From the IMG/VR virus record IMGVR_UViG_3300048999_000166, positions 58,430-122,429 of that record: a DNA stretch of 64,000 bases; one strand, given 5' to 3'. The notes beneath the pieces were generated by a model, which saw only the letters and a program-made list of their open reading frames with translations, had not been told where the DNA came from and ran no database searches. Below are positions 624 to 9,129 of the stretch, piece by piece. Source of the DNA: a virus. Made by a program: the position numbers and the translations under genes. Position 1 is the first letter of the stretch; each line of letters starts with the position of its first letter.

Positions 624-2459
624 ATGGCAACTCCAGCCGCGACCTTCTGCAATATTGGAGTCGGAGCCGGGAAGTCTAACTATCAGCTGGACTACAGCAC
701 GGCCACTGGCGCTGGGATTACCACCGCGACTCCCTCCACGCTGGCCAGCTCCACCGGTATCAGTAGCATTATGTATTCCTCTACTGACGGCAGCGCGATG
801 ATGCTGCGCTCGGACGTGGACGTCGATGTGATCGCCACCAACGGCTACCCGCGTTCGGAGTTCCGGGAGCGTCAGCAGGATGGTTCAACGCTGCGCGCGT
901 TCACCCCGACCAGCGGAGATCACTGGGCCGAGGTGTGGGAGTGTCCCACGCACCTGCCTCCGATCAAGCCCTCCTACGTCATGCTGCAGATGCACGACAA
1001 CAACGACGACATCATCGAGATCGCGTTGCAGCGGCGGACGGACTTCGCCACCACCGGCCTGTTGGAAATCGTCGCTCGGGTTAATGGCTCCAGTCAGGTC
1101 CAGATCGGCGTGGATGGCGGCGGTAACCCGGTCTACTACACCTGGCCGAAGCTGGTGACCACACACGTGTGGGGCACCTGGTACCGACTCAAGATCTACG
1201 TGGGAGCCATCCACTCGGGATCCACGGGATATGAGATCAGCTGTAATTCAGTGACCGTCAAGAATACTGACAACGTGAACATGCCAGCTATGAACACTTC
1301 GGGGGCGAACAGTTACTTCAAATGTGGTATGTATTTGCAAACGAAGTGGACTGGGAGTGGTACCCTAGGTCTAGAGACAGATCGAAATGAATACGGAGAG
1401 GCCGCGTTCCGCGATTTCCGTACTCATCACAATGGAGAAACCGACACTTCGATACAGACACGCGGAACAGATACGCCCGATACGGTCTCTAGCGTGGTGT
1501 GGGGAGCTAAGGCATCTGGTCACCAGACTACCCCACTGTCGTCGGGAGGTACCGGAATTACGCTTACTCCCGCGCTCCCCACTGGACTTGTCCTCGGAGA
1601 TATGGTGTTCTGCATTACTAGGACTAGTCGAGGTATCAATACCACTAGCGCTACGGCTGCCACCTCGGAAGCTCCCGGGCCACCTACCGCTCCATCGACG
1701 CCGAGCATCACCACTGGGTGGACAAAGCTGATCAGCACTCATATGCCTTTTGCGGCGGGGGACACCAATAGTGCGTATCCTGGTAGCCCCAATCTCCAAG
1801 CTCATACGATTCGGTGGCTACTGTTCGGTAAGCCCTGGGTATCGGGGGATACCGCTCCCACTGTGACATACGCGGCTGGTAATACTCTTACGGACACCAT
1901 GACCGCGCACGTGTTTAAGTGTTCCGGGTCTAAATACTCTACAGTGTTCGCGGAGGTAATTGATCAACCACCCAATGGCCTCGATCTGTCCAATCCGGCG
2001 GACAACAACAACACGATCACCGGCATCAACTATGCAGCCGCGACTAGCACGACCGTGCTCGGCCCCACTGCTGCCCTGGCCAGTAACGCCGAGGCAGGCT
2101 CGCTGGCCATCGCATGTGTCTACCACGAGACCAACACGACCAACACGACTATTGGCGTGGTGACCGGTGGATCGGATGGCCTAACGTGGGCCGCGGGGGG
2201 CGTCTCGAACACTACTACGGTGACACCGGCTAGCGGGTCCGGGGCGGAGTGCGATGAACCGGCCTTCGCGCACGACTGGGCTATCGTCCCCTCCAACGCT
2301 GGACAGGCCATCCCGGCCAAGCAGGCCGCAGCGACGATCAGTGGTGACGCGAACAAGCCCTCTACATCGCTCACCACCCCAGGCAGTGGGTGGGGCGTCC
2401 TGTTCACGATCGCGGCAGCTAGGAACCGCCGTAAGTGGATGCGGGCGGCGAGTTACTAG
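624..2459 (+). CDS. Virion-associated polysaccharide lyase family 7 (alginate lyase-like) domain protein, putative depolymerase/receptor-binding protein
   Basis: PL7 signature motifs RSEFRE, QMH (QIH-like) and YFKCGMYLQ (YFKAGxYxQ-like) in the N-terminal half; Thr/Gly-rich C-terminal half; RBS ggggga before ATG 624; follows the tail gene. Confidence 0.7.
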   Translation: MATPAATFCNIGVGAGKSNYQLDYSTATGAGITTATPSTLASSTGISSIMYSSTDGSAMMLRSDVDVDVIATNGYPRSEFRERQQDGSTLRAFTPTSGDHWAEVWECPTHLPPIKPSYVMLQMHDNNDDIIEIALQRRTDFATTGLLEIVARVNGSSQVQIGVDGGGNPVYYTWPKLVTTHVWGTWYRLKIYVGAIHSGSTGYEISCNSVTVKNTDNVNMPAMNTSGANSYFKCGMYLQTKWTGSGTLGLETDRNEYGEAAFRDFRTHHNGETDTSIQTRGTDTPDTVSSVVWGAKASGHQTTPLSSGGTGITLTPALPTGLVLGDMVFCITRTSRGINTTSATAATSEAPGPPTAPSTPSITTGWTKLISTHMPFAAGDTNSAYPGSPNLQAHTIRWLLFGKPWVSGDTAPTVTYAAGNTLTDTMTAHVFKCSGSKYSTVFAEVIDQPPNGLDLSNPADNNNTITGINYAAATSTTVLGPTAALASNAEAGSLAIACVYHETNTTNTTIGVVTGGSDGLTWAAGGVSNTTTVTPASGSGAECDEPAFAHDWAIVPSNAGQAIPAKQAAATISGDANKPSTSLTTPGSGWGVLFTIAAARNRRKWMRAASY

Positions 2460-3142
2460 TCCGACTCTATCCACGTGGCCTGTCGTGCGTTCGGGAACAT
2501 CGATTCGCTCAAGGGTTCCGTCACGAAGAACCCCGCGATAGAGATCCGGTTGGCCCCCTCTACCTTCGTCACGAAGTGCAACGCGTCCGCCGCCATGAAC
2601 ACCAGCCGATTGGGCTTGGGGAAGATGAACAACCCATGCCCCGGTGACAACGCGCGCCGCGCCTCCTCTCGATCGTCGAGCCACGGAAGGATGTCTCCGC
2701 AGGACGGGGTATCGCGATCGAGGACGCAGAGGATGCCTCCCCAGTGCGGGCGCCACTCCGGGTGCGCGAAGTAGATGTACGACCCGGCCCCGCCTGGCTC
2801 GTCCGCGTGCAGGGAGAGACCGCTACCTGGCGGGTACACCCACGGAGCGAAGTTGACGAACTCATGATCGTCCACCACCGTCTTGAGTAGCTCGTGTTCG
2901 TGGGCGGACCCGACAAGCGTGCAGAACCGATCGAGCACGCGCGGTCCGGGCATCGGAGCGCGTTGTCCCGTCAAGGGGAAGCCATCGTGCGGACGCCACA
3001 CCTTCGACACGGTCGTCACATGGACATTCTGGAAGGTGCTGGAGCTGATCCAGTTGAACAGCTGGGAAGCGTAGTCGGCGTCGAACACGTCGTCGAAGAC
3101 CGCGACCTTGTCGGTGAGCAGCGCGGGCTTATCGAAGTCCAT
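2456..3142 (-). CDS. 2OG-Fe(II) oxygenase (prolyl-4-hydroxylase-like)
   Basis: HAD (HxD) motif, W..HWGG.L, distal H (ALHFV) and R.SIAGF. Confidence 0.85.
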   Translation of the reverse strand: MDFDKPALLTDKVAVFDDVFDADYASQLFNWISSSTFQNVHVTTVSKVWRPHDGFPLTGQRAPMPGPRVLDRFCTLVGSAHEHELLKTVVDDHEFVNFAPWVYPPGSGLSLHADEPGGAGSYIYFAHPEWRPHWGGILCVLDRDTPSCGDILPWLDDREEARRALSPGHGLFIFPKPNRLVFMAADALHFVTKVEGANRISIAGFFVTEPLSESMFPNARQATWIESD

Positions 3143-3826: not shown

Positions 3827-4102
3827 TCAAAAGCCGCGCTCGCGCTTCATATCAGCGGTGAGATCGTCGAGCTTCCGGATGAACTCACCGAGGTCGATGT
3901 TGTGCAGGATGTGCGTGGTCCGGGCGGTGGTCTCGTCCTCGTAGACGATGTGCACCTCGATGTCGGAGTAGGAGCACGTCTCGCAGTAGCCGCCCCAGGT
4001 GGTCTCCTGGTCGACGGACAGGACGCGGTCGATGCGCGTGACACCCTGGCGCTCCAGGTAGCGCTTGACTACCTCGTAGAACCCCAGGGTGCCCTCGCTC
4101 AT
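3827..4102 (-). CDS. Hypothetical protein
   Basis: 91 aa; ATG abuts the Ro60 stop codon; CxxC (YCETC). Confidence 0.65.
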   Translation of the reverse strand: MSEGTLGFYEVVKRYLERQGVTRIDRVLSVDQETTWGGYCETCSYSDIEVHIVYEDETTARTTHILHNIDLGEFIRKLDDLTADMKRERGF

Positions 4103-5767
4103 CTAGATCGCTCCTCGTGCGAAGTCGGCCAGCAGGTTCGGGACGTTCGAGTCGAAGCCCGAGACATCCAGCGTTCCCTCGTCGGCCGGGTCCGCGATCG
4201 TGAACTCAGTCGGCGTCAGCGCGACCACCGCCAGCCGGGTGTTGATGCCGGAGGTCTCGCGGTAGCGCTTCAGAGCCTGCTGCGGGTGGATCGCCCCCGC
4301 CCACGTCTCGTTGTCGGTCAGCACCTCGATGACGTCGTACTCCTTCTTCAGCGCGCCCGCCCACAGCATGGGCAGCGCACAATCAGTGGAGCCGAACGGG
4401 AGCCGCTCGATGGTGCGTACCGCATCGTCGAGCCGCTGACGCGGGCTGAGCGCCAGCTCGCTCACGTCGGTGAACTGCTGGCTCCGACCCCAACCGCCAC
4501 CGGTGAAGCCGATGACGTCGCACGCGGGCTCCGTCGCCATCGTGAACAGCGCCAGCGCCGCCGTGACCTCCCGGCAGGTGATCGCCGAGTAGTTCGGCTG
4601 GCGGTAGCCGCCGCGACCCTTGCGGGGCGCGCCCTGAGCCGGGCTACCCATCGAGCCGGACACGTCCAGCGCGAGCAGGTGCCGCTTGTTCGAGGGCTCG
4701 AAGGTCCCGAAGGTCCGGTAGAACGCGGAGTCGAGCGCGTCCACGATCTGACGCTTCGGGCTCCAGGTGTTCTCCCCCATCATCGACTGGCCGCGGCTGT
4801 AGGTACGCAGCGCGACCAGCGCGTTGATCGGGTGGATCCGGGCCTTGCGCAGCTTGTCGGTGTCCTGCAGCTGCGCGGTCACCGTCGCCAGCGACTGCGC
4901 CGAGTTGAACACCCCCAGGTTCGTCAGCCGCGGCAGCTGCCGGATCAGCGCGGTCATCGGGACACCAGCGGCGATCAGGGCGTGCCACACCTCCGCCTGA
5001 GTCACCGCGGCGTCGGGCAGCGCCTCCCAGGGCAGCCGGAAATTAGTGACCAGCTCGACCCACTGCGCGACGGTGGTCGCCTCCTGCGCCTTCTCGAACG
5101 CATCCACCAGCGCGGGCTTGACCTTCGGGTCGCTGTCCTTGCCCTCGTGCTTGACCATCCAGTCGAACAGCGCCTTGCGCTCCGGCTCGTCGGTCTGCGG
5201 GTGGGACAGGCGCAGCAGATCGCGGTGGCTCCAGCCCTCGCGCTGCCGGTACTTGATCGCCTGGTAGGCCACGGACTCGACCGGCTTATCGAGGTACCAG
5301 TTGCGCACCGCCCGACGCAGCCCACCGCCCCAGCCGCGGAACTGCTCCGCGTAGCGGGTGAACAGGTAGAGGTGCGTGCCGGTGCGGCACACCTTCGAGA
5401 CCGCATCGTTGGCCGCCCGCCGGGCCGCCTCTGTGCCGCCCAGCGCCGACACAGCGGCGAGCGCGAAGATGGCCGGGTTCTGTCGCGGCGCTCGACCCGC
5501 GACCGAGATCTCGACGATGCGCTCGACCAGCCACTCACCTCGGTCACGCGCGGCGGCCAGGATGACCTGCGCGTTGTCCTTGGTGAGGTCGGCCTCGGTC
5601 ACGTAGTAGGTACCGCCATCGGTGCCGAGGGTGAGGAAGCGGTTGACCCGCGTCTCATCGCCGACCTGGAAGACATAGCCGCCCGCGTTGTTCTTGACCT
5701 GGCGGGGGTCAGCCTTCTCCGACTGGGGAGTCTTGCGGGTACTGATTGCGGTCAGTGCGTCGGCCAT
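4103..5767 (-). CDS. rsr: Ro60/Rsr RNA-binding protein (TROVE + vWA domains)
   Basis: QVKNNAGGYVF, RFLTLGTDGGTYY, KYRQREGWSHRDLLRLSHP, LRNL-like IRQLPRL, vWA DVSGSM and TDNETWAG motifs; RBS GAGAGGAAAG before ATG 5767. Confidence 0.95.
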   Translation of the reverse strand: MADALTAISTRKTPQSEKADPRQVKNNAGGYVFQVGDETRVNRFLTLGTDGGTYYVTEADLTKDNAQVILAAARDRGEWLVERIVEISVAGRAPRQNPAIFALAAVSALGGTEAARRAANDAVSKVCRTGTHLYLFTRYAEQFRGWGGGLRRAVRNWYLDKPVESVAYQAIKYRQREGWSHRDLLRLSHPQTDEPERKALFDWMVKHEGKDSDPKVKPALVDAFEKAQEATTVAQWVELVTNFRLPWEALPDAAVTQAEVWHALIAAGVPMTALIRQLPRLTNLGVFNSAQSLATVTAQLQDTDKLRKARIHPINALVALRTYSRGQSMMGENTWSPKRQIVDALDSAFYRTFGTFEPSNKRHLLALDVSGSMGSPAQGAPRKGRGGYRQPNYSAITCREVTAALALFTMATEPACDVIGFTGGGWGRSQQFTDVSELALSPRQRLDDAVRTIERLPFGSTDCALPMLWAGALKKEYDVIEVLTDNETWAGAIHPQQALKRYRETSGINTRLAVVALTPTEFTIADPADEGTLDVSGFDSNVPNLLADFARGAI

Positions 5768-5789
5768 GGTCTTTCCTCTCATGAGTGGA

Positions 5790-5902
5790 CCCGCGCGGGC
5801 ATGCACATATCGAGACTGGAGGTCCCACCTCCAGCAGGTAAAGCCTGCCTTGGTGCGACTCCCGAAGCCGGAAGATAACCAGCCTCGTCCGGCCCGCGCG
5901 GG
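5790..5902 (-). ncRNA. Y RNA-like unit 1
   Basis: 11-bp terminal stem, GGGCCGG 5' motif, CTGGTTATC, CCAG, 3' CATGCCC. Confidence 0.7.
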
Positions 5903-5913
5903 CCCGTGTAGGG

Positions 5914-5978
5914 GATGGGCATGTGAGCGACAACCGGTTCAAGTGAGAGTTGTGTTAACCGACTGTCTCCGGCCCATC
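5914..5978 (-). ncRNA. Y RNA-like unit 2 (minimal, no tRNA-like domain)
   Basis: GATGGGC/GCCCATC stem, CCGG, TCGGTTAAC, CCGG, CATG. Confidence 0.7.
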
Positions 5979-5999
5979 TTCACTATAGAATTGTATTGC

Positions 6000-6114
6000 G
6001 ACAGCGGGCATGTTGTGACGTACCGGGGTTAAGCGGCATCCAGCCCGAGCGAGGAATCGAACCTCGACCTTCTTTTTCGCAGAAAGATAACCGATGTGTC
6101 TCCGGCCCGCTGTC
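6000..6114 (-). ncRNA. Y RNA-like unit 3 (with T arm)
   Basis: 10-bp terminal stem, scaffold motifs, T arm GAGG-TTCGATT-CCTC. Confidence 0.8.
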
Positions 6115-6134
6115 CATTATCTAGTTTTATAGGG

Positions 6135-6201
6135 GGACAGGCATGTGATGATGACCGGTGTTTGTCCGTTACAAGGGTAACCGACCATCTCCGGCCTGTC
6201 C
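6135..6201 (-). ncRNA. Y RNA-like unit 4 (minimal)
   Basis: GGACAGGC/GCCTGTCC stem, TCGGTTACC, CCGG, CATG; only a GTTAC/GTAAC hairpin as cargo. Confidence 0.7.
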
Positions 6202-6221
6202 TTCAATATCGAGTTGTAGAG

Positions 6222-6352
6222 GGATGGGCATGGAGTTCGACGACCGGTACGGAGGCCTAGGGGTGGGAGTCGAACCCACGCCTCGGGACCGGAGTCCCGC
6301 GTGCTCCCGGACTGCACTACCCCAGAGGTAACCGACTGCCTTCGGCCCATCC
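6222..6352 (-). ncRNA. Y RNA-like unit 5 carrying a complete non-permuted tRNA cloverleaf (6256-6326)
   Basis: Scaffold motifs plus acceptor TCTGGGG/CCCTAGG, D arm GTGC/GCAC, anticodon arm with 6-nt loop CTCCGG, T arm GTGGG-TTCGACT-CCCAC. Confidence 0.8.
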
Positions 6353-6362
6353 TTGGCTATGC

Positions 6363-6496
6363 GAACGCGGACATGTAAGTGACTGCCGGGGAAAGTGACT
6401 TACCAATTCGTCCACACTGTGTGCTAACACAGCGGCGGGACTCGAACCCGCATCCCCACCTTTCGAGGGTAACCGACCGTCGTCCGGCCCGCGTCC
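6363..6496 (-). ncRNA. YrlA-type Y RNA unit 6 (permuted tRNA: T arm, acceptor hairpin, D arm)
   Basis: T arm GCGGG-TTCGAGT-CCCGC, hairpin CGCTGTGT/ACACAGTG, Leu-like D arm GAC-GAATTGGTAA-GTC; terminal stem has two G.U pairs on the minus strand. Confidence 0.85.
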
Positions 6497-6508
6497 AATA
6501 TTGAGTTA

Positions 6509-6588
6509 TAGGAGCCCGGACTCGCATCCCATCGGTGTTAGTTCCTCCGCCCGGGCGGAGAGGCACCGTGTGCCTGGGGCTAGTCCTA
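6509..6588 (-). ncRNA. Atypical multi-hairpin RNA inside the array, lacking the Y scaffold motifs
   Basis: TAGGA..AGCCC/GGGCT.CCTA outer stem, AGGCAC/GTGCCT and CTCCGC/GCGGAG hairpins. Confidence 0.35.
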
Positions 6589-6592
6589 GGTA

Positions 6593-6704
6593 GAACGGAC
6601 ATGGTGAGCAGCACCGGAGTGCGGACTCGAACCGCTCGAAACTCAGGTGTTATCCCTCGTCTCCGTCAGCCAGATGCGATAACCGATACTCGTCCGGCCC
6701 GTTC
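6593..6704 (-). ncRNA. Y RNA-like unit 7 (T arm near 3' side)
   Basis: GAACGGGC/GTCCGTTC stem, TCGGTTATC, T arm GCGG-TTCGAGT-CCGC, CCGG, CATG. Confidence 0.75.
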
Positions 6705-6725
6705 CTAATATGAAATTGTTTAGTT

Positions 6726-6825
6726 GGACAGGCATGTTCAGGCAGAACCAGATCTACCATGAAGGCGATCCTCGCGGAGCCTTTCACCGGAGTCGAACCG
6801 ATAACTGATTCCAGTCGGCCTGTCC
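6726..6825 (-). ncRNA. Y RNA-like unit 8
   Basis: 8-bp terminal stem; TCAG/CTGG compensatory variant of the TCGG/CCGG helix; T arm CGG-TTCGACT-CCG. Confidence 0.75.
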
Positions 6826-6834
6826 TCATTAGGC

Positions 6835-6971
6835 GGATGGGCATGTTTGTGGCTGCCGGAAAAATTTCTATTGCTCTACCAACTGAGCTACGCTCCCACG
6901 CGAGTGAAAACGACTGGACTCGAACCAGCGACCCACAGATTATTGGTTAACCGACGACCGCCGGCCCATCC
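6835..6971 (-). ncRNA. YrlA-type Y RNA unit 9 (permuted tRNA)
   Basis: T arm GCTGG-TTCGAGT-CCAGT, acceptor hairpin CGTTTTCAC/GTGGGAGCG, canonical D arm TAGCTCAGTTGGTAGAGC. Confidence 0.85.
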
Positions 6972-6988
6972 TCACTATTGAGTTAGAC

Positions 6989-7125
6989 GAGGGCGGGCAT
7001 GTAATGACCGCCGGAATAAACGCGTGCTACCGTTACACCACCCCGAGTTGTGGTCCCGGGGCCAGGAGTCAAACCTGGTCTACGCCCTCCAAATGGGTAA
7101 CCGACATGTCGTTCGGCCTGCCCTC
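6989..7125 (-). ncRNA. YrlA-type Y RNA unit 10 (permuted tRNA)
   Basis: T arm CCAGG-TTTGACT-CCTGG, hairpin CCCCGGG/CTCGGGG, D arm TGGTGTAACGGTAGCAC. Confidence 0.85.
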
Positions 7126-7179
7126 GCGGGTAACGGTAGCGTGTTGCCGTTCAAGATCGCCACCGGGTTACCCTTCTGG

Positions 7180-7713
7180 CTAAAACTGCAGCTCAGGCAC
7201 ACCTTCCAGCTCGATGCCGTAGCGTCGGTAGACCTTGACCGTGTTCTCCCCGGTGAGGTCCGTTTCGGAGTACCCGAGCAGCCCCGCGACGCGGATCACC
7301 TCCGCCTTCGTCGGCGCCTCGATCTCGGCGTAGGGCGGAATGCCCGGCCAGTGGTCCACCTCGACGCTGGCGCTGCCTACTAGATAGCTGGTGCGACGAT
7401 TCTCCTGGTAGGCCTTCGCCCGGAACCCCATCATCGTGAGCATCGTGTTGGTGCCCTCGAAGTCACTGACCTCGATCTCGATCTCGTGAGTACCGTCGAT
7501 GCCATCGTGCAGGATGTGCTTGACGGTGAGGGTGGCGTTCCCACCGTCGTCGCGCAGCCGGATCCACCGTGAAGGATCGTCGCGCGCGATGTCGTAGACG
7601 TAGCGGCGCATCAAGCGCGTATCCCCGAACCGGTAGCCCCCGTTGTCGTGGATCTTCCGCTCGAACGCGTCCGGGTCGATGTTCAGGATCTTGGCTTCAT
7701 GCTCGATTGGCAT
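7180..7713 (-). CDS. CYTH/triphosphate-tunnel metalloenzyme (class IV adenylate cyclase-like)
   Basis: N-terminal EHEAK (ExExK), WIRLR, LTVK, EIEIEV, YQENRRT, EVDHWP..PPYAEIEA. Confidence 0.88.
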   Translation of the reverse strand: MPIEHEAKILNIDPDAFERKIHDNGGYRFGDTRLMRRYVYDIARDDPSRWIRLRDDGGNATLTVKHILHDGIDGTHEIEIEVSDFEGTNTMLTMMGFRAKAYQENRRTSYLVGSASVEVDHWPGIPPYAEIEAPTKAEVIRVAGLLGYSETDLTGENTVKVYRRYGIELEGVPELQF

Positions 7714-7742
7714 GATGGTGCTCCTTCGGCTGAGGTTCGTAC

Positions 7743-8807
7743 CTATGCTACCGCTAGGGCGCTGGCTTCGGTGGTGCGCAGCCCGACGATCTCGTCGGGC
7801 AGTGAGCTGGCCAGGAACTCCTCCAGCGGCAGGCAGAGGTCCATCCGCTGAATGCACACCCCGACCTGGTAGGTGCCCACCCGGTCGACGTAGAGCCGGA
7901 CCCCGTAGAAGCCCTCCTGGCAGTCCTTGTCGTTGTTGAACCGGCAGCTCGCGCACGTCTCCGGCAGTCGCACCGGCCGGATCTCCTTGAAGTAGACGGT
8001 GCGCCCGTCGGGCAGCTCGTAGCTGGTGCGCGCGCCCGACACCCCAGCGGTTACGTAGTGGGCCCGCGCGACGGCCCCACGCTCGGCGAGGATGGCCTCG
8101 ATCGCCTCGATGGAGATCGCCCCGTGGTCGAGGGAGTTGAGCAACCGCACGGACAGCTGGGGCGAGTACTCGTCCAGTAGCCGGTGTACCCGGGCGGCGT
8201 GGCTGTGGTCGAGCACCACGATGTTGGCGTCCGCCCGCACCCCGTGCGCCTCGCAGGTAGCGATCGACTCCTTCAGCGCCGCGATCTTGCGCTCCGCCAG
8301 CTCGACGTTACGGAAGCGGGTGTGCTGCACCTCCGCCAGCTCCGCCGCCGTCGTGCCGAAGACCGAGAAGTTGACCTTACGCAGCCCAGCGGAGGCAGCA
8401 GCCGGGATGACCGCCGCACCCCGCTCCCCATTCGAGGTCATCCGCACCCCGTAGCCGGCGTCGGACGCGAGCTGGGTCAGCTGCGCCAGCGATGGATGCA
8501 GCGTGGGCTCACCGCCGGTGAAGTGCACCTCCGACAGATCGAGCGCCTCGCGCAGCGAGGTGAGAGCTTCGGTGAAGCGCTCGTCGGGCCGCACCACTCC
8601 GGGCAGGAACGTGGCGCCATTGGTGGCCGCGTAGATGGACATCCGGCCGCTCGGACCGGCGGTGGTGAAGTCGCCCACGGGGCGCCGACGGTTGTCGGCG
8701 ACGACCGGGGTTCCTTCGTTGTGGCAGAACGTGCAGGTGAACCCGCACGGATCGTGGATCTTGATACGGAGAGTGGCGTCCTTCTCGACGATGGTGGGCA
8801 AGTCCAT
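7743..8807 (-). CDS. Radical SAM protein, MoaA-like
   Basis: LRIKIHDP-CGFTCTFC-HNEG, FTGGEPTL, TSNG, C-terminal CASC-x7-C cluster; RBS AGGA before ATG 8807. Confidence 0.88.
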   Translation of the reverse strand: MDLPTIVEKDATLRIKIHDPCGFTCTFCHNEGTPVVADNRRRPVGDFTTAGPSGRMSIYAATNGATFLPGVVRPDERFTEALTSLREALDLSEVHFTGGEPTLHPSLAQLTQLASDAGYGVRMTSNGERGAAVIPAAASAGLRKVNFSVFGTTAAELAEVQHTRFRNVELAERKIAALKESIATCEAHGVRADANIVVLDHSHAARVHRLLDEYSPQLSVRLLNSLDHGAISIEAIEAILAERGAVARAHYVTAGVSGARTSYELPDGRTVYFKEIRPVRLPETCASCRFNNDKDCQEGFYGVRLYVDRVGTYQVGVCIQRMDLCLPLEEFLASSLPDEIVGLRTTEASALAVA

Positions 8808-8847
8808 GGCTGGGATCCTTTGATCGGTTGATGTGCTGCAGCGCGAA

Positions 8848-8878
8848 GCAACCCCCCGAGCTGTGCTCAGGGGGTTGC
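8848..8878 (-). terminator. Terminator-like hairpin downstream of whiB
   Basis: 13-bp stem GCAACCCCCTGAG/CTCGGGGGGTTGC (G.U on the minus strand). Confidence 0.55.
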
Positions 8879-8889
8879 TCGCCGGGGCG

Positions 8890-9129
8890 CTAGGCGGCTG
8901 TCCGCTCCAGTCGAAGCAGCCGGCGCCCATCCGCGGTCACGCCACCCCAGATGCCGACGTCGATGCCCTCATCAAGGGCCATCGAGAGGCACTCTTCGCG
9001 CACCGGGCATGCCGAGCAGACCGCCAGGGCTTCCTGGGCGAACTCGGGCTTGGTGGACACCGGGAAGAAGATCTCCGGGTCGACGCCGGTACGGCAGCTG
9101 GCGCGGTGACGCCAGTCAAAGGTGGTCAT
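8890..9129 (-). CDS. whiB: WhiB-family Fe-S transcriptional regulator
   Basis: W...ASC, PEIFFP, CxxCPV.xEC, GIWGG motifs. Confidence 0.95.
   Translation of the reverse strand: MTTFDWRHRASCRTGVDPEIFFPVSTKPEFAQEALAVCSACPVREECLSMALDEGIDVGIWGGVTADGRRLLRLERTAA

What the first reader, a model, noticed from the sequence alone, without database searches (positions are those of the whole stretch)
4103..7125. Ro60 preceded by a tandem array of ten Y-RNA-like genes sharing one covarying scaffold but carrying different cargo domains
Seen: ten units in 5790-7125, all on the minus strand, directly upstream of the TROVE gene. Scaffold: [7-11-bp terminal stem]GGC-CG(G/A)-N7-9-(T)CGGTTA(T/C/A)C-[cargo]-CCGG-N9-11-CATG(C/T)CC[stem]. 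The terminal stems differ in sequence but keep their pairing. The TCGG/CCGG helix covaries (TCAG/CTGG in unit 8, CTGG/CCAG in unit 1). G.U pairs in units 6 and 7 occur only on the minus strand, which fixes the orientation. Cargo ranges from almost nothing (units 2, 4) through a T arm (3, 7, 8) and full permuted T-acceptor-D mimics (6, 9, 10) to a complete cloverleaf (5). Units 5 and 10 contain GCCGAAG/GCCGAACG, matching the GNCGAAN0-1G Ro-binding motif as I recall it. Known: Ro60/Rsr with YrlA tRNA-mimicking Y RNAs occurs in bacteria and some phages, usually with few RNAs, often near rtcB. Inference: a modular library of Ro-tethered tRNA decoys or adaptors, e.g. against several host anticodon nucleases or tRNA-sensing defences. 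No RNA ligase gene is in this window.
Basis: partly seen in the sequence, partly recalled or inferred. Interest (0 to 1): 0.85.

Follow-up and report, generated by a model that had tools for sequence, protein, structure and literature searches.

The report
Ten Y-RNA genes before phage Ro60
A 122-kb uncultured actinobacterial phage carries ten back-to-back genes for small Y-type RNAs, all with the same docking handle but different (mostly tRNA-like) inserts, just in front of the gene for the RNA-binding ring protein Ro60; rows of 2-8 such RNAs turn out to be usual beside this kind of Ro60, which I found described in no paper.

Summary
Ten units lie head-to-tail on the minus strand (5787-7127), ending 19 nt before the Ro60 start codon. 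All share one scaffold: terminal stem, invariant GGCCG/CAUG internal loop, second helix, invariant UUAYC. These ten are the only matches in the whole 122-kb genome.

The scaffold is a real RNA family. Across 60 units from 16 loci, 92% of cells pair against 68% after shuffling, and 17 of 19 pairs show compensatory changes.

It is tied to Ro60 in both directions:
- RNA first: 43 of 46 model-positive viral loci encode Ro60, against 0 of 71 model-negative loci.
- Protein first: 73 of 79 viral Ro60 loci carry units, always on the Ro60 strand and mostly just upstream.

The published mycobacteriophage ET08 YrlA is one such unit, so these are YrlA/YrlB-type Y RNAs. Arrays hold 1-8 units in other viral loci and 2-5 in cellular Actinomycetota. 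Ten is the largest seen.

Unit 5, a complete cloverleaf inside the scaffold, is unique among about 300 units checked.

The modular Ro60-adaptor reading is supported. The anti-defence decoy idea is untested and partly contradicted.

This scan has noted analogous Ro60-like RNA arrays on other DNA. I rate it a new variant of a known kind.

The parts
4103..5767 (-). Ro60 (Rsr) gene, 554 aa, TROVE plus vWA domains
   Evidence: Pfam TROVE E 1e-44 and vWA_Ro60 E 1.9e-51. Full-length match to D. radiodurans Rsr 2nvo (E 5e-110) and to Xenopus and human Ro60. Start set at ATG 5767, preceded by GAGAGGAAAG.
6987..7127 (-). Unit 10: scaffold plus permuted tRNA mimic (T arm, acceptor-like hairpin with loop ACCACAA, D-like arm); carries GCCGAACG
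   Evidence: R1 84.9 bits, R2 66.6 bits; fold and cargo
6835..6971 (-). Unit 9: scaffold plus permuted tRNA mimic with a canonical D arm (YrlA type)
   Evidence: R2 68.4 bits. Rfam YrlA 34.3 bits, E 6.6e-5. T- and D-arm blocks are identical to a unit of L071.
6726..6825 (-). Unit 8: scaffold (helix top AUCAG/CUGGU) plus a T arm that starts in the UUAUC, plus one hairpin
   Evidence: R2 45 bits
6592..6705 (-). Unit 7: scaffold plus hairpins and a T arm; two G.U pairs in the terminal stem
   Evidence: R2 52.4 bits
6498..6591 (-). 94-nt gap between units 7 and 6 with GC-rich hairpins and no scaffold; possibly a decayed tRNA. Its last ~16 nt carry the spacer motif.
   Evidence: Fold z-score -1.46. 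No tRNA or model hit. L071 has tRNA-Arg(ACG) at the equivalent place.
6362..6497 (-). Unit 6: scaffold plus permuted tRNA mimic (T arm, 8-bp hairpin, D-like arm)
   Evidence: R1 96.4 bits, R2 79.3 bits; Rfam YrlA 20.9 bits
6222..6352 (-). Unit 5: scaffold enclosing a complete, non-permuted tRNA-like cloverleaf (6255-6326) with a 6-nt anticodon loop and a 4-nt variable loop; carries GCCGAAG
   Evidence: Rfam tRNA 47 bits. ARAGORN gives a 2-nt 'anticodon'. R2 48.3 bits. It is the only unit of about 300 with an internal cloverleaf.
6135..6201 (-). Unit 4: minimal unit, scaffold plus a 17-nt loop
   Evidence: R2 56.3 bits; fold
6000..6114 (-). Unit 3: scaffold plus a hairpin, a T arm and a small hairpin
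   Evidence: R2 74 bits
5914..5978 (-). Unit 2: minimal unit, scaffold plus a 16-nt loop
   Evidence: R2 49.9 bits; fold
5787..5905 (-). Unit 1: scaffold (14-bp terminal stem, helix top CUGG/CCAG) plus two GC-rich hairpins and no tRNA part; ends 19 nt before the Ro60 ATG
   Evidence: R2 47.4 bits
3538..3744 (-). tRNA-Met and tRNA-Trp genes downstream of Ro60 on the same strand (context)
   Evidence: ARAGORN; Rfam tRNA 58.1 bits

Best explanation
The ten units are genes for Y RNAs of the actinobacterial and phage YrlA/YrlB type.

Each RNA closes its 5' and 3' ends into one shared handle. The handle has a terminal stem of 7-14 bp ending in GGC/GCC. Next comes an invariant asymmetric internal loop (5' CG(R)A opposite 3' (C)AY), then a second helix of 8-11 bp topped by NUCGG/CCGRN, then an invariant single-stranded UUAYC. 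The handle is the docking site for the phage's own Ro60. The part beyond it is a free module: nothing, a T arm, a permuted tRNA body, or in unit 5 a whole cloverleaf.

The array and Ro60 are most likely made as one transcript, which host RNases then cut in the AT-rich spacers. The phage then fields a set of Ro60 particles that differ only in their adaptor RNA.

By analogy with known Y RNAs, the modules tether Ro60 to host RNA enzymes. Candidates are PNPase and, for T-arm or tRNA-shaped modules, enzymes that grip the tRNA elbow. The modules would also gate access to Ro60's cavity, redirecting structured-RNA handling during infection.

Shown: the units, their fold and covariation, the two-way linkage to Ro60, and family membership through ET08 YrlA.

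Inferred: Ro60 binding, co-transcription and processing, and the tethering partners.
For: Uniqueness: ten units and nothing else in the genome match the scaffold models. The motif occurs 9 times against 0.05 expected.

Covariation across 60 units from 16 loci: 92.4% paired against 68.1% shuffled and 28-43% slid. 17 of 19 pairs have double changes. U.G occurs at one pair in 42 of 60 units, which fixes the strand. Within the array the figure is 92.5% with 12 of 19 pairs.

Linkage to Ro60:
- A scan of IMG/VR by RNA motif alone gave 46 model-positive loci, of which 43 encode Ro60. None of the 71 model-negative loci does.
- A scan by Ro60 protein gave 79 loci, of which 73 have units. All units are on the Ro60 strand. 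In most loci the last one ends 20-60 nt before the Ro60 start.
- No other neighbouring gene is conserved.

Link to described Y RNAs:
- The ET08 YrlA of Chen et al. 2014 (PMC4201824) is a unit of this family (R2 68 bits). It scores 37.4 bits on Rfam YrlA, and unit 9 scores 34.3.
- The 5' strand GGGCCGRA resembles the GGUCCGA and GNCGAA Ro-contact motifs quoted in that paper.

Ro60 itself is full length and orthologous to solved Ro60/Rsr structures.

Precedents: a Thermus phage Ro60 binds two upstream Y-like RNAs and host PNPase in vitro (PMC12135203). M. smegmatis YrlA and YrlB co-precipitate with Rsr.

The phage has no PNPase or RNase PH domain, RtcB, Rnl ligase or CCA enzyme of its own, so any partner is a host protein.

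Processing: short spacers are 33% GC against 61% in the units. No intrinsic terminators or sigma-70-type promoters were found between units. Only 19 nt with a ribosome-binding site separate unit 1 from the ATG.
Against: - No expression or binding data exist for this uncultured phage.
- No unit reaches the Rfam YrlA gathering score (best 34.3 against 69).
- Only units 5 and 10 carry the published GNCGAAN0-1G motif exactly. Seven have GCCGGNN and unit 8 has GCCGACU.
- The conserved spacer motif (ACAACTCGATATTGAA-like) contains -10-like ATAnT hexamers. Separate promoters for each unit therefore cannot be excluded.
- Which host proteins the modules bind is unknown.
- The alignments used for pair counts were fitted to the model, which favours the structure somewhat.
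Confidence: 0.8

Rival explanations
1. Anti-defence decoys. The tRNA-like cargos soak up host tRNA-cleaving or tRNA-sensing defence enzymes, and Ro60 stabilises or presents them.
For: Seven of the ten units carry a T arm or a fuller tRNA body. Unit 10's acceptor-like hairpin loop begins with ACCA. Relatives place arrays inside or beside large tRNA arrays, which are often read as counter-defence.
Against: - Units 1, 2 and 4 have no tRNA part.
- Units 6, 9 and 10 lack an anticodon arm, which is the target of PrrC, RloC, VapC and AriB-type nucleases.
- Only unit 5 has an anticodon arm, and its loop is one base short.
- Rows of 2-5 units with the same handle sit beside Ro60 in cellular Actinomycetota contigs, so the design is probably not phage-specific (prophage origin not excluded).
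- No defence or anti-defence gene is linked to the array.
Confidence: 0.12
2. tRNA-type precursors. The scaffold is a leader-trailer duplex that helps make or stabilise tRNA-like RNAs. RNase P and 3' processing release the cargo, most plausibly for unit 5, and Ro60 acts only as a quality-control chaperone for them.
For: Unit 5 is a complete cloverleaf with all core tRNA elements, flanked by 5 and 8 unpaired bases inside the handle. M. smegmatis YrlA is cut by RNase P and receives CCA in vivo (PMC4201824). True tRNAs are interleaved with units in L071 and in phage Forza.
Against: Minimal units have nothing to release. Permuted units cannot yield a normal tRNA. Unit 5 has a 6-nt anticodon loop and no encoded CCA, and it is the only such unit among about 300. 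The most conserved part of every unit is the handle, not the cargo.
Confidence: 0.06
3. The array is not a set of trans-acting RNAs. It is either a long structured 5' leader that controls Ro60 expression, or a DNA-level repeat.
For: The array abuts the Ro60 start (19 nt). There are no terminators between units.
Against: Compensatory changes and strand-specific G.U pairs show selection on an RNA fold in separate units. Unit number varies from 1 to 10 while the unit design stays constant. In some distant relatives and in Forza, units lie downstream of Ro60 or among tRNAs. Published family members are discrete Ro60-bound small RNAs.
Confidence: 0.02

Closest known systems
YrlA and YrlB Y RNAs with Rsr (Ro60) of Mycobacterium smegmatis and of cluster C mycobacteriophages such as ET08 (Chen et al. 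2014, PMC4201824; Rfam RF02553)
   Same: They are encoded next to Ro60 on the same strand. The 5' and 3' ends pair into a stem that carries a CG(A/G)A motif near the 5' end. The YrlA type has a T arm, an acceptor-like hairpin and a D arm in permuted order; the YrlB type has a T arm only. The ET08 YrlA is hit by the scaffold model built here (68 bits), and it sits in a three-unit row.
   Different: The published accounts describe one or two RNAs per locus. Here there are ten, including minimal units with no module, one unit with unrelated hairpins, and one with a whole non-permuted cloverleaf. The shared handle (GGCCG/CAUG loop, second helix, UUAYC) and the row arrangement are described in none of the papers I could search. 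No unit reaches the Rfam gathering score, but neither does ET08 YrlA.
Thermus phage phiLo Ro60 with Yrl1 and Yrl2 (PMC12135203; PDB 9KOP, 9L5Y)
   Same: A phage-encoded Ro60 has Y-like RNAs just upstream. The RNAs have a stem-bulge-stem design with a CGAA motif. Binding to the phage Ro60 and to host PNPase was shown in vitro.
   Different: There are only two RNAs, the host phylum is different, and no tRNA-like cargo series is reported. Sequence similarity of its RNAs to the handle found here was not tested.
Deinococcus radiodurans Rsr with Yrn1, and the Rsr-Y RNA-PNPase (RYPER) machine
   Same: Ro60 is orthologous (2nvo, E 5e-110). The Y RNA is a two-part adaptor: a stem binds Ro60 and a distal module binds the effector. 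Several small RNAs are encoded upstream of rsr.
   Different: The Yrn1 module binds PNPase, and its T- and D-like arms are arranged differently. No PNPase gene exists in this phage, so any such complex would use the host enzyme.
Arrays of small RNAs with a shared handle beside Ro60-like DUF2828 proteins in other phages
   Same: They share the same logic: a ring-protein gene plus a row of RNAs with one handle and tRNA-like parts.
   Different: Those notes describe a different protein family and a different handle (for example a helix plus ACAGCAA). Here the protein is a bona fide TROVE plus vWA Ro60, and the RNAs connect directly to published YrlA.

Membership tests
Y RNA (Ro60 partner RNA), bacterial/phage YrlA-YrlB type sensu Chen et al. 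2014 | Encoded within a few kb of a Ro60 ortholog, on the same strand | tested here: met
   All ten units lie 19-1360 nt upstream of Ro60 on its strand. Across relatives, 43 of 46 and 73 of 79 loci show the linkage.
Y RNA (Ro60 partner RNA), bacterial/phage YrlA-YrlB type sensu Chen et al. 2014 | The 5' and 3' ends form a long stem interrupted by a conserved loop or bulge that holds the Ro60 site | tested here: met
   Folds. Covariation in both helices. Invariant G8, G11, U29, U30 and A31 in 60 units.
Y RNA (Ro60 partner RNA), bacterial/phage YrlA-YrlB type sensu Chen et al. 2014 | GNCGAAN0-1G motif near the 5' end | tested here: inconclusive
   The motif is exact in units 5 and 10 only. Seven units have GCCGGNN and unit 8 has GCCGACU. 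The family consensus is GGCCGRA. ET08 YrlA itself reads GCCGAGAG.
Y RNA (Ro60 partner RNA), bacterial/phage YrlA-YrlB type sensu Chen et al. 2014 | At least one RNA per locus has a tRNA-like domain (T arm, acceptor-like stem, D arm) | tested here: met
   Units 6, 9 and 10. The Rfam YrlA alignment of unit 9 covers the T, AS and D elements.
Y RNA (Ro60 partner RNA), bacterial/phage YrlA-YrlB type sensu Chen et al. 2014 | Physical binding to Ro60, and existence as discrete small RNAs | not testable with these tools
   The phage is uncultured and no RNA or binding data are available.
Rfam RF02553 (YrlA) | Score at or above the gathering threshold of 69 bits | tested here: not met
   The best scores are 34.3 bits (unit 9) and 20.9 bits (unit 6). 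The published ET08 YrlA also fails with 37.4 bits. Eleven related loci gave no YrlA hit at gathering. The threshold is therefore too strict for the actinobacterial and phage branch.
tRNA (for unit 5 cargo) | Cloverleaf with a 7-nt anticodon loop, and free or processable acceptor ends | tested here: not met
   Rfam tRNA scores 47 bits and all core elements are present. However, the anticodon loop has 6 nt, the variable loop has 4 nt, there is no CCA, and both ends run on into the Y handle.

The most novel reading that the evidence does not exclude
The handle is a universal dock, and the phage uses the array as a ready-made library of Ro60 adaptors. Each module would aim the Ro60 ring, with host PNPase or other nucleases, at a different class of host RNA or RNA enzyme. 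Alternatively, each module would hold a different tRNA-binding host factor away from its substrate. Unit 5 would be a whole tRNA body carried on Ro60. Expansion from 2-5 units in cells to 6-10 in large phages would then mark an arms race fought through RNA adaptors.
Probability: 0.2. Interest if true: 0.85.

Novelty: new variant of a known kind. Interest (0 to 1): 0.64.

Why it matters
Y RNAs are thought to work as two-part adaptors: one end holds Ro60 and the other end chooses the partner. Only one or two have been studied per bacterium or phage.

This array shows ten natural variants of the 'other end' on one constant handle, in one genome. The comparative data show that such rows are the normal state of this Ro60 clade. 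IMG/VR holds 468 stretches that encode a Ro60 relative, and GTDB genomes hold at least 586. Of the 80 best-matching loci kept from each collection, most carry units.

This gives:
- a defined handle whose Ro60 binding can be tested by mutation;
- a natural panel of modules for pull-downs to find Ro60's partners;
- cultured phages (ET08/Bxz1, Forza, Cashline, Belfort, Magritte) in which to test what phage Ro60 does, which is still unknown.

It also flags mis-annotated 'tRNAs' and small ORFs in deposited phage genomes.

Tried and rejected
- Megablast of the region against GenBank phages gave no match.
- Rfam at gathering score found only tRNAs in the window. YrlA appears only below threshold.
- MAFFT misaligned the 3' halves of units 1, 4 and 8. 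I fixed this by giving a hand-drawn structure and realigning to the model.
- My first tblastn for Ro60 used a frame-shifted translation and found nothing. It was corrected.
- The 5' motif alone is not specific in 596 Gb of genomes. Only 6 of the first 100 genome hits were confirmed by the model, so the rest are best read as chance matches.
- The sigma-70 promoter and intrinsic terminator scan found nothing convincing between units.
- The spacer motif is not a general promoter of this phage, because it occurs only in the array.
- The loops of minimal units 2 and 4 have no sense or antisense match elsewhere in the phage genome at up to 3 mismatches. A guide-RNA role against phage transcripts is therefore unsupported, and host targets could not be tested.
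- Cargo sequences match other loci only in the T- and D-arm blocks. Orthology is visible for units 9 and 10 (with L071) but not for units 1, 2, 4, 5, 7 and 8.
- The neighbouring genes (CYTH, radical SAM, a 91-aa ORF, 2OG oxygenase) are not conserved beside Ro60 elsewhere.
- The 94-nt gap between units 7 and 6 is not a significant fold (z -1.46).
- Two reviews on bacterial Y RNAs (PMC10870794, PMC6047535) and the supplement of Chen et al. 2014 are not held. An earlier mention of arrays there cannot be excluded.

Full report
**What is there**

The window is the right-hand 64 kb of a 122,429-bp IMG/VR virus record with direct terminal repeats, 64.8% G+C and five tRNA genes.

On the minus strand, a 554-aa Ro60 gene runs from ATG 5767 to 4103. 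It has TROVE and Ro60-vWA domains. It matches D. radiodurans Rsr (2nvo, E 5e-110) and Xenopus and human Ro60 over its full length.

Directly upstream lie ten units, from 7127 to 5787. Unit 1 ends 19 nt before the ATG, and a GAGAGGAAAG ribosome-binding site sits in between.

The motif GGCCGR-N6-10-GGTTAHC occurs nine times in the window, all in the array and all on the minus strand. Shuffles predict 0.05.

**The scaffold**

Folding the two minimal units (2 and 4) shows the design:
- a terminal stem ending in GGC/GCC;
- an asymmetric internal loop, 5' CG(R)A opposite 3' (C)AY;
- single-stranded UUAYC, followed by the cargo.

Within the array, 92.5% of cells pair, against 77.6% shuffled and 33-39% slid. 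12 of 19 pairs change on both sides.

One correction applies. Units 9, 5 and 2 share one terminal stem, and units 8 and 4 share another, so part of the array arose by duplication.

**Cargo**

| Units | Cargo |
|---|---|
| 2, 4 | Loops of 16-17 nt only |
| 3, 7, 8 | A T arm plus other hairpins |
| 6, 9, 10 | T arm, a 7-9-bp hairpin and a D-like arm, the permuted order of YrlA |
| 1 | Two GC-rich hairpins, no tRNA element |
| 5 | A complete non-permuted cloverleaf |

Unit 5's cloverleaf scores 47 bits on Rfam tRNA. It has U8, A14, GG in the D loop and UUCGA in the T loop. It also has a 6-nt anticodon loop, a 4-nt variable loop and no CCA.

ARAGORN run on the 150 best units from each of two samples found no other internal cloverleaf.

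**It is a family, and it travels with Ro60**

A covariance model from the ten units (R1) found rows of the same scaffold upstream of Ro60 in GenBank phages and IMG/VR contigs. The GenBank phages are ET08, Cashline, Forza, TomSawyer, Belfort, Magritte and Naboo.

On 60 units from 16 loci:
- 92.4% of cells pair, against 68.1% shuffled and 28-43% slid;
- 17 of 19 pairs show compensatory changes;
- one pair is U.G in 42 of 60 units, which fixes the strand.

The alignment was fitted to the model, which favours the structure somewhat. The stems nevertheless differ almost completely in sequence between loci.

A second model (R2) finds exactly ten hits in the whole genome of this phage.

Two independent censuses were run.

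| Census | How loci were found | Result |
|---|---|---|
| RNA first | Scan of IMG/VR for the 5' motif, 117 loci | 46 had R2 hits, and 43 of these encode a Ro60 homolog. The three exceptions include two short loci. None of the 71 R2-negative loci encodes one. |
| Protein first | A Ro60 alignment retrieved 468 viral stretches. Of the 80 best kept, 79 were searched; the 80th, L004, was already known to carry four units. | 73 of 79 have R2 units, all on the Ro60 strand. In most loci the last unit ends 20-60 nt before the Ro60 start. |

No other neighbouring gene is conserved.

**Array sizes**

| Source | Units per array |
|---|---|
| Other viral loci | 1-8, typically 3-5. Eight in L052/L259, seven in L298 and L321. 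|
| Cellular Actinomycetota contigs (Nocardia, Nocardioides, Cellulomonas, Promicromonospora, Arachnia, Mycobacterium) | 2-5. I did not check whether these are prophages. |
| This phage | 10, the largest seen |

**Relation to known Y RNAs**

Chen et al. 2014 reported YrlA-like RNAs beside Ro60 in 254 bacteria and 22 phages, including ET08. They reported at least two Y RNAs in S. Typhimurium and M. smegmatis.

ET08's YrlA lies inside the R1/R2 hit L015:4705-4850 and is flanked by two minimal units. It scores only 37.4 bits on Rfam YrlA (gathering 69), about the same as unit 9 with 34.3. No relative reached gathering. Failing Rfam's cut-off therefore says little about this branch.

The 5' strand GGGCCGRA resembles the Ro-contact motifs GGUCCGA and GNCGAA quoted in that paper.

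A Thermus phage Ro60 was shown to bind two upstream Y-like RNAs and host PNPase (PMC12135203).

I found no paper that describes rows of more than two units or the handle as defined here. Two reviews and the 2014 supplement were not available.

Earlier notes of this scan report analogous arrays beside Ro60-like DUF2828 proteins in many other phages. Those involve a different protein family and a different handle.

**Expression**

Short spacers are 33% G+C against 61% in the units. They share a motif, ACAACTCGATATTGAA-like, which recurs in the spacers of L071 and L003. In this genome it occurs only in the array.

No sigma-70-type promoter pairs or intrinsic terminators separate the units.

Three relatives have a good promoter-like TTTGCN-N17-18-TACAGT just before their first unit. 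The window has a weaker TTGAAC-N16-TACCCG.

With only about 20 nt between the last unit and Ro60, one transcript cut at the spacers is the simplest reading. Separate promoters that use the ATAnT in the spacers cannot be excluded.

**Mechanism**

The phage encodes none of the following: PNPase or RNase PH domain, RtcB, Rnl ligase or CCA enzyme. Any effector must therefore come from the host.

The best-supported model is that each RNA docks on phage Ro60 through the common handle and presents its own module, as known Y RNAs tether Ro60 to PNPase.

The decoy idea has no direct support. It is weakened by the units without tRNA parts, by the absence of an anticodon arm in the permuted mimics, and by the same arrays in cellular genomes.

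**Host hint**

A contig binned with a Mycobacterium sp. MAG carries a Ro60 that is 98% identical, together with units 4-1 at 98% identity. The differences fall mostly in loops or give G.U pairs. The contig ends inside the array.

**Verdict**

The feature is real and robust. It belongs to a known kind (Ro60 with Y RNAs). The array architecture, the defined handle and the cloverleaf unit make it a new variant that is worth experimental follow-up in cultured relatives.

Noticed in passing
L012:165-516 (IMGVR_UViG_3300046517_002960, 190-kb phage contig): A phage-borne bacterial class A RNase P RNA (Rfam 261 bits). It sits beside about 30 tRNA genes and a six-unit Y array upstream of Ro60.
   Followed up: no
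L014:7552-7619 (Gordonia phage Forza NC_070763 88866-88933) and L018:4434-4510 (Microbacterium phage Magritte OR553905 76028-76104): The annotated 'tRNA-Gln' and 'tRNA-Arg(tct)' get no Rfam tRNA hit at gathering and coincide with Y-scaffold units (R2 56-61 bits). They are probably mis-annotated Y RNAs. Forza also has four units scattered among the true tRNAs downstream of Ro60.
   Followed up: partly
L015:4806-4979 (Mycobacterium phage ET08 gp219): This annotated 57-aa ORF lies on top of Y units 2 and 3 upstream of Ro60. It is probably not a gene.
   Followed up: no
window 6498-6591 (-): A 94-nt interruption between units 7 and 6 has GC-rich hairpins and no scaffold. The related array in L071 has a true tRNA-Arg(ACG) plus a long hairpin at the same place, so this may be a decayed tRNA.
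   Followed up: partly
L336 (DATAZN010000619.1, 'Mycobacterium sp.' MAG contig, 22 kb): A near-identical strain of this phage: Ro60 98% identical and units 4-1 98% identical. It is binned with a Mycobacterium MAG, and the contig breaks inside the array. This is a host hint only.
   Followed up: partly
window spacers 5979-5999, 6115-6134, 6202-6221, 6498-6513, 6972-6986; L071:5096-5116, 5326-5340, 5630-5645: A conserved AT-rich spacer motif (ACAACTCGATATTGAA-like) precedes most units. It is shared with related arrays but absent from the rest of the genome. It could be a processing site or a unit promoter.
   Followed up: partly
L003:5580-5616, L013:4686-4722, L052:715-751: A conserved promoter-like TTTGCN-N17-18-TACAGT, overlapping a TGTAAC...GTTACA palindrome, lies just upstream of the first unit in three related arrays.
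   Followed up: no
window 3827-4102 (-), 7180-7956 (-), 7743-8930 (-), 2456-3142 (-): Neighbours of the module: a 91-aa ORF (phrog_5993) that starts right at the Ro60 stop codon, a CYTH-domain protein, a radical SAM protein and a 2OG-Fe(II) oxygenase. None is conserved beside Ro60 in other loci.
   Followed up: partly
L188 (Methylobacterium fujisawaense NZ_JACJIM010000004.1), L415 (Bacteroidales MAG), L406 (Bathyarchaeota MAG): The same handle and Ro60 also appear on contigs assigned outside Actinomycetota: four units in the Methylobacterium, five in the Bacteroidales MAG and one in the Bathyarchaeota MAG. This could reflect transfer, a prophage or mis-binning.
   Followed up: no
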